64,000 bases of DNA from an uncultured delta proteobacterium (GTDB lineage Bacteria > Desulfobacterota > Binatia > Binatales > Binataceae): assembly GCA_963808235.1 (NCBI GenBank), contig CAWEEQ010000004.1, positions 2,880,001 to 2,944,000 of the forward strand, read 5' to 3'. A program made the translations under genes and the position numbers. Below are positions 3,395 through 57,797 of this stretch, one piece after another (position 1 is the stretch's first letter; each line of letters starts with the position of its first letter). A model generated the notes under the pieces. It saw only the letters and a program-made list of their open reading frames with translations, had not been told where the DNA came from and did not search any database.

Positions 3395-4026
3395 TCCGGC
3401 GCCGTCTCCCGATTGTGCGGATCGCGACGTTAGTCGCGAGCCGCGGGAGAGGTCAGATCGACGTGGCAGGCGTGTCGCCGGTGCGGGAGATGGCGTGGTG
3501 TGATTGACGTTGAGAAAGATCCCGGATTCTTCGCTGCGCTCAGAATGACACGGACAAAAAATAGAAAGACGCAAAACAGTTGTCGTCTTGGCGGTGGCTT
3601 TGAAGTTCGGCGATAACTTCTCTCGACGCGAATCGCGTCGACCTCTCCTTTCCTTGGACATAAGAGCATAACCCTAGCGCGGCTTTCGGAGCAGAGCAGA
3701 ATCTTGAATCGCGCGCCAAAAAAGGCGCGCTGGATAAGGTCCCTCACCTGCAATCCTCTCCCATCGGGAGAGAGGGGATGATGCCGCGACCAGGTATGCA
3801 TAGCCTTCTTGGACAAGGAGAGGTGAGATCGGCCTGGCGAGCGTGTCGCTGGCTCGAGTGATGGTGTGGTGGGATTCGCGTTGAGAAAGATCCGGGGTCC
3901 CTCGGCTTCGCTCGGGATGACACAAAGATAAGAATTGCGCTTGGGCGTGAGCTTTGGCCCGCATCGCGATTTCGACTGGCTTACTGGCTTACCTAACCCC
4001 TAACCCCTTCCCTTGAGGGAAGGGGA
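3395..4026. repeat. Intergenic cluster of palindromic (REP/BIME-like) repeats
   Basis: Diverged direct repeat 3446-3551 vs 3817-3923, each ending in a reverse TGTC-tagged hairpin (3521-3550, 3892-3922). CCCTC/CCTCTCCC..GGGAGAGG hairpins at about 3401-3454, 3741-3777 and 4004-4025. Confidence 0.8.
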
Positions 4027-52178: not shown

Positions 52179-54147
52179 ATGAATCCCGAAACGGTACCCA
52201 ATTCCTCCGACATAACACCCGGCTTCGGCGGGCTTCGCGTGGTCGCATTCGAGAGCCGGATGGCTACCGAAGTTGCGACCATGATCGAGCGCCGCGGCGG
52301 TATCGCGATCGTCGCGCCTGCGATGCGCGAGGTGCCGCTCGAGGACAACCACGCCGCGCTCGACTTCGCCGCTCGCCTGCTCGCGGGCGAATTCGACGCA
52401 GTCGTGTTCATGACCGGCGTCGGCACGCGTGCGCTGTTCCAGGCGATTGAAACGCGTCATCAGCGCGCCGCGATCGTGCGCCGCACTCGCGCGCCTCATC
52501 ACGGTTGCGCGCGGACCCAAACCGATTCGCGCGCTCCGCGATCTCGGCGTCGAGCCCTCGATAGTCGTGCCGGAACCGAATACATGGCGCGAGGTGCTGA
52601 ACGCGCTCGCATCGCAGGTTGATCTCAAGGGCAAGCGCGTCGCGGTGCAGGAATATGGCGTCTCCAATCATGAGCTGACCGCGGGACTCGAAGCGCGCGG
52701 CGCTCGCGTCACGATCGTGCCGGTGTATCGATGGACTTTGCCGGTTGACCGCGCGCCGCTGCGTGCGGCGATGAACGCAATCGCGTCGGGCAACGCCGAT
52801 GTCGCGATCTTCACCAGCTCCAACCAGGTCACCAACGTCATCCAACTGGCGGAAGCCGAAGGTATCGGCGCCGAGGTGAAGCGCGGATTCTCGCGCATCG
52901 CGGTCGGCTCGATCGGTCCGGTCTGCTCGGAGCAGATTCGCGCGTACGGGCTCACCGTGGACTTCGAGCCGGAGCACTCGAAGCTCGGCCATCTTGTGAA
53001 GGAGGCCGCGTCCGAGGCGCCTCGGATTCTTGCCGCGAAGCGCGATCGGAAAGTTCAGATCGAAGTTGTCGGATCGCCGAAACAGTCGCGCGCTGCGATC
53101 GCGATCCCCGAGCGTTCTCTGCTCGCCGATCATGCGATGATGAAAGCGTGCCGGCGCGAGGTAACCACCTACACGCCGATCTGGCTGATGCGCCAGGCGG
53201 GCCGTTATATGCCCGAGTATCGGCGCGTTCGCGAGCGTCACGGCTTTATCGAGATGTGCCGGCGTCCGGAGCTCGCTGCCGAAGTCACCATCACCGCCGT
53301 CGAGCGGCTCAAGGTGGATGCCGCGATCATTTTCGCCGACATCCTGCTGCCGCTGATTCCGATGGAAGTCGGACTGCATTACGAAACCGGCGACGGTCCG
53401 GTGATCGATCGTCCGATACGCACCGCCGCCGATCTCGAACGTATCCCCGCGGTCGATCCCGCCGCGCTCGGCTTCGTCGGCGAATCAATCAAGCTGGTGC
53501 ACTCCGCGATCGGCGCGACGACTCCGCTGATCGGATTTGCCGGCGCGCCATTCACGCTCGCCTCGTACCTGATCGAGGGCGGCTCGTCGCGCCAGTATCA
53601 GACCACGAAGACTTTCATGTACACGCAGCCCGAGACGTGGCATCGCCTGATGGAGATGCTCGCGCGGACTACCGCCGACTATCTGAAGATGCAAATCGCC
53701 GCCGGCGCCGACATCGTGCAGATTTTCGATAGCTGGGTGGGCAGTCTCGGCCCCGACGATTACCGCCGCTTCGTGCTGCCGCATACGGCGTCTGTGATCG
53801 CCGCGATTCCGGCGAACGTTCCCGTCATTCACTTCGGCACCGTGACCGGCAATCTTCTCGAGTTGATGCGCGAGGCGGGCGGCGACGTGATCGGCCTTGA
53901 TTGGCGCGTCGATCTCGCCGACGCGTGGGCGCGCCTCCATTACGATGTCGCGGTGCAAGGCAACCTCGATCCGATCGCACTTTTCGCCGACGTTAGCGAA
54001 ATTCGATCGCGCGCGCGCGCGATTCTCGACCAGGCAGCCGGCCGCCCCGGCCACATCTTCAACCTGGGACACGGAATCCTTCCCGAGACGCCGGTCGATC
54101 ATGTCATTGCACTCGTCGATGCGGTCCATGAAATGAGTCAACGATAG
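52179..54147 (+). CDS. hemE: Fused uroporphyrinogen-III synthase / uroporphyrinogen decarboxylase, frameshift at about 52482
   Basis: HemD part: FESR, MTGVG, VARGPKP, VYRW, SIGP. It continues without a stop into HemE: PIWLMRQAGRY, FADIL, QIFDSW, IFNLGHG. Confidence 0.9.
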
Positions 54148-54183: not shown

Positions 54184-55108
54184 ATGAGCGCGAAGGCAAA
54201 GTGCGATTCGGTCTTGATGGTCGGATTCGGCGGACCGACGCGCCCAGATGAAGTGCGGCCGTTTCTCGATAACGTGCTGCGCGGACGCCCGGTGCCGCGC
54301 GAGCGCTACGAAGCCGTCGTGCATCACTACGAACTGCTCGGCGGCAAGTCACCCTACAATGAATTGACGATGCGCCAGGCGGATGCGTTGCGCATCGAGC
54401 TCGCCAGAAAAAATACAAACGTGCCGGTCGCAGTCGGGATGCGCAACTGGAATCCGTATGTCGCCGACTCGATGCGCGCACTCGCTAAGAACGGTGCTCG
54501 ACGCGTGCTCGCATTTATCCTCGCGGCCCATCGATGCGAAGCAAGCTGGGAGCGTTACCAGCAAACCGTGCACGACGCTCAGACCAACACCGGCGAGTCG
54601 GAAATCGAAGTCGTGTATCCGGAGCCGTGGCACGACCATCCCCTATTCATCAAGGCGGTCGCTTCGCGCACCCGCGAGGCCCTCGCATCGTCTCGACGCC
54701 AGTGCGCGGTCGCGCGCGATTCTCATCTTCACCGCGCACAGTATTCCGGTCGCGATGGCCGAGGCGAGTCGGTACGTCGAGCAACTTACCGAGTCGGCAC
54801 GGATGGTTGCGTCCGATCTCGGCGTTAGCGCGTGGCAGTTTGCGTATCAGAGCCGCAGCGGCAGTCCGCGCGACCAATGGCTCGAACCCGGCATCAACCA
54901 AACGATTCGCGATCTCGACGCCAATGTCGCGGTCGTCGTGCCGATCGGTTTTCTGTGCGATCACGTCGAGGTCCTGTACGATCTGGATATCGAAGCGGCG
55001 CAAATCGCGCGCGAAGCAGGAATCCGCTTTGAGCGCGCACCGACCGTCGGCGATCATCCGTTGTTCGTCGAAATGATGGCGTCGATAGTCCGCGGCCACG
55101 TCTGCTGA
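54184..55108 (+). CDS. hemH: Ferrochelatase, frameshift at about 54690
   Basis: FGGP, GGKSP, GMRNWNP, FTAHSIP, YQSRSG, WLEP, GFLCDHVEVLYDLDIE. Confidence 0.9.
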
Positions 55109-55219
55109 GAGTCCGTGAGTTTTTCAAAAGTCTTTGTGTCACCCTAGAGCGCAGCGAAAGCCTGTCCTGAGCTCTGTCGATCGGAATCCCGGATCGATCT
55201 CGGCGAATGGAAAAACCCA

Positions 55220-55274
55220 GTGGCACGGGCGTCCCTGCCCGTGGATCGATGCGCGAGCTTCCTGCTCGCGCCAC
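55220..55274. repeat. REP doublet (REPIN-like, GTGG-tagged)
   Basis: GTGGCACGGGCGTCCCTGCCCGTG and inverted partner GCGCGAGCTTCCTGCTCGCGCCAC. Confidence 0.6.
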
Positions 55275-55618
55275 CACCCTTTCTAGGAGACTTCTTGCAT
55301 AACTGGCTGTTGGGAATTGCTTATCCTACTGGCGCGCCTCTTTTTTGTGTCATTCTAGAGCGAAGCGAAGAATCCCGGTCTTTCTTTTCTCCCCCTCCGT
55401 CATCCCCCGTCCGTCATCTTGAGCGGAGGCTGCCGGAGTAAAATGCTCGGAGCCTGCCCTGAGTATTCTCGAAGGGCGAAGCGATGCTCTTTCTTTTTTC
55501 TTTGTGCCTTCTCCTTGTGTCATTCTAGAGCGAAGCGAAGAATCCCGGCTCCAATTTCTGCGATCTAGTCTTTGTGTCATTCTAGAGCGAAGCGAAGAAT
55601 CCCGGATCCGAAAGCTCG

Positions 55619-55918
55619 ATGCGGAAAACAGCTCACAGCAAGAACTACTACGTTTACATAATGAGCAGCCTGTCGCGTACTCTCTACACCGGGGTAACCA
55701 ATGACCTCGAGCGACGTGTGAACGAACATAGGAGTGGCGCAATACCTGGATTCACCAGACGCTACAAAATCGACCGTCTAGTTTATTTTCAGGAAACCAA
55801 CGACATCGGCGAGGCAATCGCTGCGGAGAAACAGATCAAAGGCTTGCTGCGGCCAAAAAAGATAGCGCTGATCGAGGAGGAAAACCCGACTTGGCGCGAT
55901 TTGAGTGCTGAGCCGTAA
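55619..55918 (+). CDS. Stand-alone GIY-YIG endonuclease (YhbQ/UPF0213-like)
   Basis: YYVYIM..LYTGVTNDLERRVNEH, FTRRY, LVYFQE, AIAAEKQIK, KKIALIEEENPTWRDL. Catalytic Y/R/H/E pattern intact. Confidence 0.95.
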   Translation: MRKTAHSKNYYVYIMSSLSRTLYTGVTNDLERRVNEHRSGAIPGFTRRYKIDRLVYFQETNDIGEAIAAEKQIKGLLRPKKIALIEEENPTWRDLSAEP

Positions 55919-56369
55919 CAAAAAACCGGGATTCTTCGCTTCGCTCTAGAATGACACAAAACTCAGAAGACAAACGGACTCAGGATCTCTGAGCAGAGTC
56001 CGATTCTTGTGTCATTCTAAGGCCAAGCGAAAGCCTGCCCTGAGCCCTGTCGGAGGGAATCCCGGATCCAATTTCTGCGATCTAATCTTTGTGTCATTCT
56101 AGAGCGAAGCGAAGAATCCCGGATCCAATTTCTGCGATCTAATTCTTTGCGTCATTACTAAGGCCAAGCGAAAGCCTGCCCTGAGTCCTGTCGACGGGAA
56201 TCCCGGATCTAATTTCTGCGATCTAATCTTTGTGTCATTCTAGAGCGAAGCGAAGAATCCCGGCTCCAAGCTCTGCGATCTTTGTGTCATTCTAGAGCGA
56301 AGCGAAGAATCCGGATCCGGAAGCTCGATGCGGAAAACAACCCGTAAGCGCTTCGCATGAGCGCTTCAA

Positions 56370-57797
56370 GTGACCTCCAACCCGAACATCAAGCTCGTCG
56401 CGATAATCGGCGCGGGAATCACGGGCCTGAGCGCGGCGTATCGACTGCGCGAACTCGCCGCTGCGCACGAACGCCCGCTCGAAGTGATCGTGCTCGAGCG
56501 CGGCGCGCATTTCGGCGGCCCGCTTGAAACAATTCGCCGCGACGGGTTCGTTATAGAGACTGGCGCCGACTCATTCCTCTCCGAAAAACCCTGGGCCGCC
56601 GATCTCGCGCGCCGACTCGGCATCGGGATCGAACTGATTCCGACCCGCGACGTTTACCGCAAGACGTTCGTCGTTCGCGCCGGGAAACTGGTAGAGATCC
56701 CCGCGGGATTTTCGCTGCTCGCGCCGGCGCATCTCGGCCCTGTTTTCAAAAGTCCACTCTTCTCGACGGCCGGCAAACTCCGCATCGCGCTTGAACCCTT
56801 GATCCCCGCGCGCGCGAGCGATTCCGACGAAAGCCTCGCATCATTTGTGACGCGAAGACTCGGGCGCGAGGTACTCGATCGCGTCGCGCAGGCGCTGGCC
56901 GGCGGAATCTACACCGCCGATCCTGAGCGGCTCAGCATCGCGGCGACGATGCCGCGATTTGTCGAGATGGAACGCCGCTATGGGAGCGTCATCAAAGGAC
57001 TTCGCGCGGCCGAACAAACTCGCGCGTCGAAAAGCGCGGAGGTGAGCGGCGCAAGATGGAGCCTGTTCCAGAGCTTCAGCAATGGAATGGCGACCTTGCC
57101 GGAGACGCTGGTCACCAAGCTCGGCGGCGCGATTCGCAAAGCGGCGGAAGTCGTCGCGATTTCGCGCAGCGGCGAGCGATGGAGGCTCGCGATCGCGGGT
57201 GGAGACTCCATCGAGGCCGACGCTGTAGTCTGCGCGGCACCCGCATTCGCCGCTTCGCGCATTCTGTCGACGCTCGCTCCCAGAGCCGCCGAGCTGCTCG
57301 GCGCAATCAGCTATGCGTCCGCGGCGACGGTCAATTTGACTTTCCGCGAGAGCGACTTCGCGCGTCCGCCCGAGGCGTTCGGCTTCGTCGTGCCGGCGTG
57401 CGAGCATCGGCGCATCATCGCGGGCAGCTTCTCCAGCTTCAAGTTCGAAGGACGAGCACCCGCGGGCGCAATCCTCGCGCGCGCATTCGTCGGCGGCGTG
57501 ATGCAACAATCGATGATGCGACTTTCCGACGACGAAATCGTCGCCGCGGTGCGCGACGAGTTTCGCGCCCTGCTCGGCGTCGAGGCCGCCCCCGGAGCGG
57601 TCGAAGTCAGGCGATGGCCCGACTCGATGCCTCAGTACGAAGTCGGCCATCTCGATCGCGTCGCCGAGATCGAACGCCTCGTCGCCGCGCTTCCCGCATT
57701 CGCAATCGCGGGCGCGGCCTATCGCGGAGTTGGCGTACCCGACTGCGTTCGCAGCGGCGAGCAAGCCGCCGACGCGATCTTTGCCGCAACACAATGA
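56370..57797 (+). CDS. hemY: Protoporphyrinogen/coproporphyrinogen oxidase, HemY type
   Basis: IIGAGITGL, ETGADSF, GIYTAD, FGFVVP, MPQYEVGH, GVGVPDC. Confidence 0.93.
   Translation: MTSNPNIKLVAIIGAGITGLSAAYRLRELAAAHERPLEVIVLERGAHFGGPLETIRRDGFVIETGADSFLSEKPWAADLARRLGIGIELIPTRDVYRKTFVVRAGKLVEIPAGFSLLAPAHLGPVFKSPLFSTAGKLRIALEPLIPARASDSDESLASFVTRRLGREVLDRVAQALAGGIYTADPERLSIAATMPRFVEMERRYGSVIKGLRAAEQTRASKSAEVSGARWSLFQSFSNGMATLPETLVTKLGGAIRKAAEVVAISRSGERWRLAIAGGDSIEADAVVCAAPAFAASRILSTLAPRAAELLGAISYASAATVNLTFRESDFARPPEAFGFVVPACEHRRIIAGSFSSFKFEGRAPAGAILARAFVGGVMQQSMMRLSDDEIVAAVRDEFRALLGVEAAPGAVEVRRWPDSMPQYEVGHLDRVAEIERLVAALPAFAIAGAAYRGVGVPDCVRSGEQAADAIFAATQ

What the first reader, a model, noticed from the sequence alone, without database searches (positions are those of the whole stretch)
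55131..56339. GIY-YIG endonuclease embedded in its own palindromic-repeat array: candidate RAYT/REP-analogous selfish system
Seen: a lone intact 99-aa GIY-YIG gene interrupts the hemH-hemY cluster and is surrounded by about 11 copies of a 31-bp hairpin repeat (TGTC tag, ATTCT..AGAAT stem). The copies immediately flanking the gene are inverted (55575-55605 forward, 55926-55956 reverse) and identical. Related copies occur away from the gene. Established: this layout (a small single-domain nuclease bracketed by inverted tetranucleotide-tagged palindromes that also occur dispersed) defines RAYT/REP loci, where the enzyme is an HUH tyrosine transposase. Inference: the GIY-YIG enzyme recognises, nicks and spreads these repeats, making a non-HUH REP-type mobile system. 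I do not know of a mechanistic characterisation of such a pairing.
Basis: partly seen in the sequence, partly recalled or inferred. Interest (0 to 1): 0.9.

Follow-up and report, generated by a model that had tools for sequence, protein, structure and literature searches.

The report
Ssn nuclease gene with hairpin repeats
This is a small GIY-YIG nuclease gene bracketed by its own hairpin repeats, a pairing already published in 2025 as the Ssn single-strand DNA nuclease system; here it sits as a lineage-specific insertion between two heme genes of an acidobacterium.

Summary
A 99-aa GIY-YIG gene (55619-55918) sits in a 1.26-kb repeat-filled spacer between hemH and hemY. It is flanked by a perfect 35-nt inverted repeat and about ten more copies.

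Chenal et al. 2025 (PMC11893778) described single-domain GIY-YIG "Ssn" nucleases flanked by GTC-tagged hairpin repeats (NTS/SRM). They showed site-specific ssDNA cutting just 5' of the hairpin and drew the RAYT/REP analogy themselves. Di Nocera 2013 had catalogued CGTC/TGTC-tagged REPs that lacked an enzyme.

Evidence for membership:
- The protein is 52% identical to a homologue flanked by canonical NTS-type repeats, against 32% to E. coli YhbQ.
- The GTC tag and the C after the palindrome are conserved.

Points specific to this case:
- The published SRM search pattern misses this repeat class.
- Covariation supports a hairpin of 5 bp, GA/GA, 2 bp and a GNA loop.
- The genome has four paralogues, and each enzyme clade has its own repeat variant.
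- A roughly 400-nt repeat-gene-repeat module recurs in at least four genomic contexts, with empty sites in relatives.

That the enzyme spreads the repeats remains unproven. This is a new member of a known kind.

The parts
55619..55918 (+). ssn-type gene (paralogue P1): 99-aa single-domain GIY-YIG nuclease
   Evidence: Pfam PF01541 at E 5.9e-16. It is 52% identical (E 2e-35) to L096, a protein flanked on both sides by canonical NTS-type repeats, against 32% to E. coli YhbQ. Y13, Y23, R32, R33, H37, E70 and N89 are invariant among the 4 paralogues.
55568..55608 (+). left cognate hairpin repeat (SRM) of the module, GTC tag on the + strand
   Evidence: (I4). The left limit of homology to modules in other genomes lies at 55560-55575.
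55925..55968 (-). right cognate hairpin repeat (SRM) of the module, inverted, GTC tag on the - strand
   Evidence: (I4). The right limit of homology lies at 55959-55968.
55131..55551 (+). left array: SRM copies at 55131-55195 (long variant), 55342-55378 and 55512-55551, mixed with other dispersed repeat families (55210-55280, 55410-55506)
   Evidence: nhmmer census and BLASTN to many other genome sites.
56003..56281 (+). right array: tandem duplication of a 141-nt unit (long SRM variant plus short SRM), 2.0 copies, 92% matches
   Evidence: (D2).
56279..56339 (+). truncated left end of a second module: SRM, leader and the first 4 codons of ssn, abutting hemY
   Evidence: Direct repeat D5, 55602-55630 and 56311-56339, 97%. 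It is 90-95% identical over 62 nt to module left ends in L138, L189 and L149.
54184..55108 (+). hemH (ferrochelatase), read in two frames because of a 1-nt insertion near 54686-54690
   Evidence: The Pfam PF00762 match is split over two ORFs. Alignment to congeners shows a 1-nt gap.
   Evidence: PF01593 at E 3.5e-62. Orthologues were found in 30 of 31 genomes searched.
3520..3552 (-). dispersed solo SRM copy in the window
   Evidence: Covariance model R1, 47.5 bits, E 1e-9; also an nhmmer hit.
3891..3924 (-). dispersed solo SRM copy in the window (ATCCC/GGGAC class)
   Evidence: Covariance model R1, 30.8 bits, E 1.5e-5; also an nhmmer hit.

Best explanation
The locus is a member of the published Ssn/SRM system. 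The gene encodes a small monomer-sized GIY-YIG nuclease of the Ssn family. The 31-50-nt repeats are its cognate Ssn-related motifs.

By homology to the four enzymes assayed by Chenal et al., the protein should act as follows (inferred, not shown here):
- It recognises the repeat only in single-stranded DNA and only on the strand that reads 5'-GTC-palindrome-C.
- It uses the hairpin and the C after it for binding, and the GTC tag for cutting.
- It hydrolyses the strand a few nucleotides 5' of the tag.

Here the hairpin has 5 base pairs, a tandem GA/GA step, a 2-bp GC clamp and a G-N-A triloop.

The gene and its two inverted repeats form a discrete module of about 400 nt. In this lineage a copy of a module type that sits elsewhere in most congeners was inserted between hemH and hemY. 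Local tandem duplication then enlarged the array.

Shown: the anatomy, hairpin covariation, family relationship, module limits, insertion polymorphism and purifying selection on the resident paralogue.

Inferred: the biochemical activity of this protein, and any role of the enzyme in moving the module or the solo repeats.
For: Published system. (PMC11893778) describe a 94-aa single-domain GIY-YIG enzyme with the NTS-ssnA-NTS layout. It binds ssDNA only and cleaves upstream of the repeat. The C after the palindrome is most crucial for binding, and the 3 nt before the palindrome matter most for cutting.

This locus.
- GIY-YIG domain and a perfect 35-nt inverted pair around the gene.
- GTC and the C after the palindrome are at least 90% conserved in 78 distinct repeat cores from homologue loci.
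- For the stated hairpin, 96.3% of 544 cells pair, 6 of 7 pairs have compensatory changes in 66 cells, and 0 of 500 shuffles reach this. Slid controls pair in 16-52% of cells.

Family link.
- 60 of 79 homologue loci from many phyla have a flanking inverted repeat above the 95th percentile of displaced-window controls.
- Profile hits pile up next to the gene: 53 within 250 nt upstream and 55 in the 0-249-nt bin that covers the gene and its downstream flank, against 1-6 per other 250-nt bin. Of the upstream hits 39 are + and 14 are -; of the gene/downstream-bin hits 19 are + and 36 are -.
- L096 has canonical NTS-type repeats on both sides and is 52% identical to P1.
- In the first set of 17 genus loci scanned with the covariance model, all 17 show a hit on each side of the gene.

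Enzyme clade matches repeat variant in the 30 genus loci tabulated.

Module. Homology to other genomes stops at the outer repeat ends: 399 nt with L017, 394 nt with L188, 397 nt with L189 and 402 nt with L194.

Insertion.
- The hemH-hemY site is empty in 16 of 17 congeners.
- The P2 site is empty (3), holds a solo repeat (1) or holds other sequence (1) in 5 of 5 ssn-lacking genomes tested.
- P1 nests in the P2-syntenic clade (support 100/98), away from this genome's own P2. It shares the extra-A repeat variant of its nearest relatives.

Function kept. Median dN/dS is 0.067 among 11 syntenic P2 orthologues; 36 of 55 pairs were usable.
Against: - The published degenerate SRM pattern matches none of the repeats at this locus or at the three paralogues. 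Genome-wide it is not enriched: 26 hits against 17 in reversed sequence. It is found near only 2 of the 80 closest homologues.
- CDD family cd10448, by which the paper defines Ssn, could not be tested.
- No Neisseria SsnA sequence was available for a direct comparison.
- Thermodynamic folding does not favour the hairpin.
- The closest solved structures are UPF0213 proteins, not Ssn: 1zg2 at E 5.6e-8.
- No assay exists for this protein or this repeat class.
- 19 of 79 homologue loci showed no flanking inverted repeat above control, and 31 of 80 had no profile hit within 250 nt.
- The covariation set kept only no-indel cores: 62 of 142 hits were skipped and identical rows merged.
Confidence: 0.82

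Rival explanations
1. Autonomous selfish element. The roughly 400-nt repeat-gene-repeat module is a minimal mobile element, and the solo repeats are its non-autonomous derivatives. The enzyme nicks each strand at the outer 5' edge of its repeat. Host replication or repair then copies the unit, or truncated ends of it, to new sites. This is not exclusive of the best explanation; it adds the claim that the enzyme drives spread.
For: - The module has sharp limits and occurs in at least 4 unrelated contexts in one genus.
- Filled and empty sites exist at two loci.
- P1 is a xenologue-like copy carrying its own repeat variant. That variant has only 5 copies outside the P1 locus in this genome.
- Frameshifted or stop-bearing copies occur in several congeners.
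- End fragments are duplicated: a left end plus 4 codons at 56279-56339; at P3 a 210-nt unit x2.9 with the first 30-odd codons and a 175-nt unit x3.0 with the last codons.
- The family is very large and spans many phyla: at least 7957 clusters at E<=1e-10, and 592 of 600 scanned stretches.
- The paper itself notes the IS-like layout.
Against: - No pair of near-identical copies was seen. Modules are 82-85% identical between contexts, and the paralogues here are 53-73% identical at protein level.
- No target-site duplication could be resolved.
- The resident P2 copy is syntenic in 11 relatives and under strong purifying selection. That fits a host-kept gene as well.
- 6 of 41 congeners have repeats but no gene.
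- GIY-YIG nucleases hydrolyse and form no covalent intermediate (established knowledge), so a joining step needs another activity.
- The two repeats are recognised on opposite strands, unlike IS200/IS605 ends.
Confidence: 0.3
2. Domesticated host function. The nuclease and its repeats serve the cell, for example by cutting incoming or exposed single-stranded DNA at marked sites. This would modulate transformation, recombination or repair, as proposed for Neisseria. The gene's own flanking repeats would reflect autoregulation or self-marking rather than mobility.
For: - In N. meningitidis SsnA lowers integration of NTS-flanked transforming DNA (paper abstract and Discussion).
- The P2 locus is syntenic in 11 relatives with median dN/dS 0.067.
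- Repeats are present in 41 of 41 congeners searched.
Against: - The gene was not found in 6 of 41 congeners, among them G050 (96% complete, 4 contigs) and G046 (98% complete). It is therefore dispensable.
- Copy number varies from 0 to 4, and several copies are broken.
- The P1 copy is a recent insertion into a heme operon spacer, which is hard to see as adaptive placement.
- Nothing is known here about competence in this organism.
Confidence: 0.3
3. Homing-type spread. The gene behaves like a free-standing GIY-YIG homing endonuclease. A head-to-head repeat pair without the gene is cut and then repaired from a gene-bearing copy, so the gene moves between existing repeat pairs by gene conversion.
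For: - Homology between modules ends at the repeats.
- CGTC-type repeats are mostly head-to-head dimers according to Di Nocera 2013.
- The P2 site of G013 holds a solo repeat without the gene.
Against: - The hemH-hemY spacers of 16 congeners hold no repeat that could have served as a landing pad.
- Ssn enzymes did not cut double-stranded DNA in the paper.
- No empty head-to-head dimer allelic to a filled site was found here.
Confidence: 0.12
4. The repeats are ordinary REP-like structural or regulatory elements, such as RNA hairpins or terminators, unrelated to the nuclease. Their presence around the gene would be incidental.
For: - Repeats persist in genomes without the gene.
- Di Nocera 2013 found that many REPs lie downstream of genes and are plausibly transcribed (abstract passage).
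Against: - Repeat hits are concentrated some tenfold or more in the 250 nt on each side of the gene, in inverted orientation, across phyla.
- Enzyme clade and repeat variant go together.
- No terminator or promoter signal above chance was found, and there is no Rfam match.
- The paper shows direct, specific binding and cutting for four pairs.
Confidence: 0.04

Closest known systems
Ssn nucleases with NTS/SRM repeats (Chenal et al. 2025, Nat Commun 16:2388; SsnA of Neisseria meningitidis)
   Same: - The enzyme is a single-domain GIY-YIG protein of about 95-100 aa.
- The gene is bracketed by inverted, oriented hairpin repeats that are also dispersed in tens to hundreds of copies.
- The repeat has a GTC tag before an AT-started palindrome and a C after it. 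Compare the published NTS consensus CGTCATTCCCGCGMAVGCGGGAATCYRG with the window's TGTCATTCT..AGAATCCCGG.
- Close homologues (L096, and clade C in this genus) carry NTS-type repeats.
   Different: - The stem is 5 bp plus GA/GA plus 2 bp with a GNA triloop, not the 8-bp stem of NTS.
- The published degenerate SRM pattern does not match.
- The host is an acidobacterium (Ca. Acidiferrales by record title), not a symbiont or pathogen.
- There are four paralogues with distinct repeat variants in one genome.
- No biochemical data exist for this clade.
CGTC/TGTC-tagged REP superfamily (Di Nocera et al. 2013, BMC Genomics 14:522)
   Same: These are short palindromic repeats with an unpaired CGTC or TGTC tag, stems starting with A-T, and short tails. 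They include Neisseria dRS3. They were described as lacking a dedicated transposase (passages read).
   Different: The four published families have 8-9-bp stems and 4-5-nt loops. Acidobacteria were not among the five phyla listed for CGTC repeats. That paper reported no associated transposase gene, and its main text does not mention GIY-YIG (0 occurrences).
RAYT/REP (REPtron) systems and IS200/IS605
   Same: A small single-domain enzyme gene is flanked by tagged hairpin repeats that are also dispersed. The enzyme recognises hairpins in single-stranded DNA. There are few gene copies and many repeats.
   Different: - The enzyme here is a hydrolytic GIY-YIG nuclease, not an HUH/Y1 transposase with a covalent intermediate.
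- The tag is GTC, not GTAG.
- The flanking repeats place the recognised strand on opposite strands at the two ends.
- Transposition has not been shown.
UPF0213 / YhbQ small GIY-YIG proteins (E. coli YhbQ; PDB 1zg2, 1ywl)
   Same: They have the same fold family and size. They are the nearest solved structures by sequence: E 5.6e-8 and 1.2e-5.
   Different: Identity to YhbQ is only 32%, and the alignment ends before the C-terminal ENPxWxDL segment. I did not examine whether YhbQ-type genes have flanking repeats.

Membership tests
Ssn nuclease family (Chenal 2025) | Single-domain GIY-YIG protein of roughly 90-100 aa with no extra DNA-binding domain | tested here: met
   The protein is 99 aa and PF01541 covers residues 9-81; there is no other Pfam family.
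Ssn nuclease family (Chenal 2025) | [quoted passage not shown] | not testable with these tools
   No CDD library was available. Indirect evidence: 52% identity to an NTS-flanked homologue against 32% to YhbQ of the UPF0213 group.
Ssn nuclease family (Chenal 2025) | Homology to N. meningitidis SsnA (the paper's criterion is tblastn E<1e-10) | not tested
   No tool gave a Neisseria SsnA sequence, and the 14 control genomes did not include Neisseria. The link is transitive only, through L096, L079 and clade C loci, which carry NTS-type repeats.
Ssn nuclease family (Chenal 2025) | Gene flanked on both sides by inverted hairpin repeats (NTS-ssnA-NTS layout) | tested here: met
   A 35-nt perfect inverted pair lies at 55571-55605 and 55926-55960. 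All four paralogues have the same layout, as do 17 of 17 genus loci in the first set scanned.
Ssn-related motif (SRM) | Match to the published degenerate pattern HGTCWYN(0-2)YYVSBRHN(0-5)WNVSBRGN(0-2)RNCYNB | tested here: not met
   There is no match at the locus or at the paralogue repeats. Genome-wide there are 26 hits against 17 in reversed sequence. The pattern occurs near 2 of the 80 closest homologue genes.
Ssn-related motif (SRM) | Functional determinants found by mutagenesis: three conserved nucleotides 5' of the palindrome, a hairpin-forming palindrome, and a C right after it | tested here: met
   G4 is invariant, and T5, C6 and C28 are at least 90% conserved in 78 cores. The hairpin is supported by covariation.
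Ssn nuclease family (Chenal 2025) | Site-specific cleavage of single-stranded DNA only, on one strand of the repeat | not testable with these tools
   This needs purified protein and oligonucleotide assays.
RAYT/REP (REPtron) | HUH/Y1 tyrosine transposase (IS200/IS605-like) as the associated enzyme | tested here: not met
   The only Pfam family is GIY-YIG.
RAYT/REP (REPtron) | GTAG-tagged palindromes | tested here: not met
   The tag is TGTC/CGTC.

The most novel reading that the evidence does not exclude
The roughly 400-nt repeat-gene-repeat unit is an autonomous mobile element of a mechanistically new type. A hydrolytic GIY-YIG single-strand nuclease nicks each strand at the outer edge of its hairpin. 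Host replication or repair then copies the unit, its truncated ends and solo hairpins to new sites. Ssn would then be the long-missing mobilising enzyme of the whole CGTC/TGTC-tagged REP superfamily.
Probability: 0.25. Interest if true: 0.8.

Novelty: new member of a known kind. Interest (0 to 1): 0.35.

Why it matters
The pairing itself was published in 2025, so the finding does not open a new class. It does three useful things.

- It places the Ssn system in free-living soil Acidobacteriota, with four enzyme-repeat pairs in one genome. That is a natural panel of specificities for a family promoted as programmable ssDNA cutters.
- It shows that a large clade of close homologues uses a hairpin class that the published search pattern misses: a 5-bp stem, tandem GA, and a GCGNAGC mini-hairpin. 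Published counts of repeat-associated homologues (71% and 42%) may therefore be underestimates.
- It gives comparative evidence bearing on the question the paper left open, whether the unit is mobile. That evidence is sharp module limits in several contexts, filled, empty and solo-repeat alleles, and a xenologue-like copy that carries its own repeat variant.

Tried and rejected
- Nearest-neighbour folding of single copies gave no support for a hairpin. It was superseded by covariation.
- Rfam gave only two sub-threshold chance matches at the locus. It gave none for a neighbouring repeat.
- Strand bias of repeats against GC skew was weak and confounded by arrays. I dropped it.
- An empty-site test for a solo repeat at C4:2004925 failed. 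Synteny is broken there and the flank holds another high-copy repeat.
- The target-site duplication at hemH-hemY could not be resolved, because the spacers are too diverged.
- 'Tag stutter' upstream of repeats is real at the P3 and P4 loci. It is not general: 14 of 101 repeats have a tag-like heptamer within 86 nt upstream, against 6 downstream.
- A nested-insertion reading of the P3 tandem fragments was rejected. The 5' fragment carries only the first 30-odd codons and the 3' fragment only the last 15 or so, so the middle of an outer gene would be missing.
- Defence or phage origin: no PADLOC or PHROG match.
- Promoter and terminator scan: nothing above shuffles.
- Literature searches that found nothing relevant: 'GIY-YIG' with 'repetitive extragenic palindromic' (0 papers); COG2827/UPF0213/YhbQ; the motif words themselves (3 unrelated primer hits); Ssn terms since 2024 (only the one paper).
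- The look-up of sequencing runs could not be reached in five tries. No read-level test of the assembly or of excision was possible.
- Supplementary files of both papers were not seen. Supplementary Data 3-5 of Chenal et al. may already list repeats of this class or acidobacterial genomes.
Full report
**What is there.**

The window is C4:2880001-2944000 of a 4.59-Mb, 4-contig genome. Between a ferrochelatase gene and a protoporphyrinogen-oxidase-type gene (56370-57797) lies a spacer of about 1265 nt. The ferrochelatase gene is read in two frames, 54184-54828 and 54383-55108.

The spacer holds one intact 99-aa ORF, 55619-55918. It matches Pfam GIY-YIG at E 5.9e-16 and nothing else.

- Its 29-nt core occurs 7 times in the window, all exact and all within 55347-56312. 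None is expected by chance.
- A profile finds 10 copies in 55131-56317, three of them long variants of about 65 nt.
- The two copies next to the gene form a perfect 35-nt inverted pair (I4).
- The right half of the array is a 141-nt tandem duplication.
- The array ends with a truncated module left end: repeat, leader and the first four codons of the gene, at 56279-56339.
- Other dispersed repeat families are mixed into the left half.

**The hairpin.**

Single-copy folding does not support a hairpin: -1.2 kcal/mol, and 179 of 200 shuffles fold at least as well. Comparative data do.

I used a sequence-only profile to collect 142 repeat hits in 80 homologue loci. I kept the 78 distinct cores without indels; 62 hits were skipped and identical rows were merged. 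I then counted pairs for the structure 5 bp / GA / 2 bp / 3-nt loop / 2 bp / GA / 5 bp.
- 96.3% of 544 cells pair.
- 6 of 7 pairs show compensatory changes, in 66 cells.
- 0 of 500 shuffles reach these values, and slid controls pair in 16-52% of cells.
- The inner pair switches G-C to A-T in 16 rows, and the middle loop base is free.

The core is therefore G-C-G-N-A-G-C flanked by invariant GA steps. From memory, not from any call: d(GCGAAGC) is a classic unusually stable DNA mini-hairpin, and tandem G.A steps stack well, which nearest-neighbour tables may undervalue.

The G of the GTC tag before the stem is invariant. T, C and the C after the stem are at least 90% conserved.

**It is a published system.**

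A literature search led to Chenal et al. 2025 (PMC11893778). I read the outline, the Results sections on NTS repeats, the ssnA association, SsnA biochemistry and the wider family, the SRM Methods section, the Discussion, and passages found by term. I did not see the supplements.

They describe Ssn as single-domain GIY-YIG proteins of about 94 aa (CDD cd10448). The genes are flanked by oriented hairpin repeats: NTS in Neisseria, with consensus CGTCATTCCCGCGMAVGCGGGAATCYRG, and SRM in general.
- Purified SsnA binds and cuts only ssDNA, only on one strand, a few nucleotides upstream of the repeat.
- The C after the palindrome matters most for binding, and the three nucleotides before it matter most for cutting.
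- Three further homologues cut their own repeats.
- 71% of homologue loci have a repeat, and 42% have one on both sides.
- The Discussion states that the NTS-ssnA-NTS layout looks like an insertion sequence. It compares it with IS200/IS605, RAYTs, REPs and BIMEs and proposes domestication. Mobility was not shown.

Di Nocera et al. 2013 (PMC3733652; passages read) had already defined a CGTC/TGTC-tagged REP superfamily, which includes Neisseria dRS3. They noted that it seemed to lack a dedicated transposase.

**Membership.**

Met:
- Size and single domain.
- Inverted flanking repeats.
- The tag, hairpin and post-palindrome C determinants.

Not met:
- The published degenerate SRM pattern matches none of the repeats here or at the paralogues.
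- It is not enriched in the genome: 26 hits against 17 in reversed sequence.
- It occurs near only 2 of the 80 closest homologue genes.

Not testable: cd10448 assignment, direct comparison with Neisseria SsnA, and activity.

The link to the assayed family is transitive.
- L096 (Cloacimonadota) carries repeats on both sides that fit the published pattern and look like NTS. Its protein is 52% identical to P1 over the full length (E 2e-35).
- E. coli YhbQ is 32% identical and lacks the C-terminal segment.
- Within the same genus, one enzyme clade (L146, L148) has GTCATTCCCGCGCG...-type repeats.

**Association beyond this locus.**
- 592 of 600 scanned stretches in species-representative genomes encode relatives, and the 80 best come from many phyla.
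- 60 of 79 loci have a flanking inverted repeat above the 95th percentile of displaced controls; one locus had too short a flank.
- Profile hits are concentrated in the 250 nt on each side of the gene, in inverted orientation. 49 of 80 loci have a hit on at least one side and 30 of 80 on both.
- The protein family has at least 7957 clusters at E<=1e-10. They are named only 'GIY-YIG nuclease family protein' or 'putative endonuclease'.

**This genome and genus.**

The genome has four full paralogues, P1-P4; P2-P4 are 53-73% identical to P1. It also has two 5' gene fragments. Each paralogue is bracketed by inverted repeats of its own variant.

Repeat counts in the genome:
- 149 profile hits at E<=1, and 101 at E<=1e-5.
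- 95 covariance-model hits; only 150 candidates per genome were scored, so counts saturate.

Across 41 genomes of the genus (G018 and G035 are unpublished):
- All 41 have repeat hits, from 1 to 129.
- 35 have a match to the enzyme at E<=1e-5.
- Six have none: G013, G014, G031, G043, G046 and G050. G050 is 96% complete in 4 contigs and has 75 repeat hits.
- Four more have only weak matches near 1e-6.
- Several copies carry stops or frameshifts.

Enzyme clades and repeat variants go together in the 30 genus loci tabulated.
- The P2 clade has ATTC(T/A/C)...GAAT with a CCCGG tail.
- The P3/P4 clade has ATCCC...GGGAC.
- Two further clades have their own forms.

By record titles the genus belongs to Candidatus Acidiferrales, Acidobacteriota. 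L017 is identical in protein to the G036 copy.

**Evidence on mobility.**

1. The hemH-hemY spacer is -3 to 68 nt in 16 of 17 same-genus loci. In the seventeenth, hemH was not found beside hemY. None of the 17 has the gene.

2. Homology between P1 and copies elsewhere stops at the outer ends of the two repeats:
   - 399 nt with L017;
   - 394 nt with the G045 syntenic copy;
   - 397 nt with a second G045 copy;
   - 402 nt with a second G006 copy.

   Two G045 copies share 388 nt. One module type thus sits in at least four contexts.

3. P1 nests within the clade of P2-syntenic genes (support 100/98) but away from this genome's own P2. Its peculiar extra-A repeat variant is that of its nearest relatives (G045, G034, G033, G036, G002, G001), not of its own P2. 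Outside the P1 locus that variant has only 5 copies in the genome.

4. The P2 site is syntenic and filled in 11 relatives. In 5 of 5 ssn-lacking genomes tested, the same two genes abut:
   - three have short empty spacers;
   - G013 has a solo repeat;
   - G046 has 222 nt of other sequence.

5. At P3 both module ends are triplicated as fragments: 210 nt x2.9 and 175 nt x3.0, 96% matches. A 16-nt stutter of the tag is also present.

Against recent activity:
- No near-identical copies were seen.
- No target duplication could be resolved.
- The resident P2 is under strong purifying selection, with median dN/dS 0.067 from 36 usable pairs of 55.

**How it most likely works.**

Shown: the anatomy, the covariation, the association, the module limits and the gain/loss pattern.

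Inferred from the assayed homologues: the protein binds the hairpin on the GTC strand of single-stranded DNA and hydrolyses it just 5' of the tag. With inverted repeats, the cut sites fall at the outer 5' edge of the module on each strand.

Speculative: such nicks could prime strand displacement from either end. That would explain the end fragments and the sharp limits. A hydrolytic nuclease needs host functions for any joining step.

Whether the system is selfish, domesticated or both is open. I put about 0.3 on each of the two pure readings.

**Verdict.**

This is a new member of a known kind, with a repeat class that the published pattern misses. Interest is moderate.

Not done:
- Read-level checks, because the run finder was unreachable.
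- Supplements of both papers.

Noticed in passing
window 54686-54690 (hemH, 54184-55108): Ferrochelatase is split into two frames by one extra base relative to congeners (L103, L109). This may be a sequencing error of a long-read assembly or a real pseudogene. It lies next to the insertion that also separates hemH from hemY by 1.26 kb.
   Followed up: partly
L003:1242-1464 (G000 C4:2004666-2004888), just upstream of a solo repeat: This is another repeat of about 110-220 nt with several internal hairpins. It is present in many copies per genome across the genus at 75-95% identity. It has no Rfam match. Its nature is unknown.
   Followed up: partly
window 55210-55280 and 55410-55506: Two further dispersed repeat families sit inside the spacer. 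One contains CACGGGCGTCCCTGCCCGTG. The other looks like a long-loop repeat variant followed by GCCTGCCCTGAG...CGAAGGG. Both have many copies elsewhere in the genome, and the array is a BIME-like mosaic.
   Followed up: no
L013 (G000 C4:1748197-1751469), paralogue P3: Both ends of the module are tandemly triplicated as fragments. One is the repeat plus leader plus the first 30-odd codons, 210 nt x2.9. The other is the last 15 or so codons plus the repeat, 175 nt x3.0. There is also a 16-nt x4 stutter of the TTTGTGTCA tag.
   Followed up: partly
L127, L132, L140-L144 (P2-type genes in G000 and congeners): In many orthologues the reading frame runs on into the downstream repeat, giving tails such as ...SSLRSE or ...GILRRSGSE. 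In G000's P2 it stops at the TGA that is the reverse complement of the repeat's TCA tag.
   Followed up: no
L161:1339-2346 (G000 C4:1301460-1302467): A 335-aa ORF with a GIY-YIG match looks like a UvrC/Cho-type N-terminus by eye; I did not test this. It lies about 400 nt from a solo repeat. The short ORF upstream is merely a translated repeat (...VILSEAKNPG...).
   Followed up: no
one search hits P0012, P0077: Proteins 81-87% identical to P1 are labelled as Candidatus Limnocylindrales (Chloroflexota) and Methylomirabilota, on short contigs. This indicates either cross-phylum transfer of the module or mis-binned contigs.
   Followed up: no
window 52429-54147: The ORF upstream of hemH fuses a HemD (uroporphyrinogen-III synthase) match to a HemE (URO-D) match in one 572-aa frame.
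   Followed up: no
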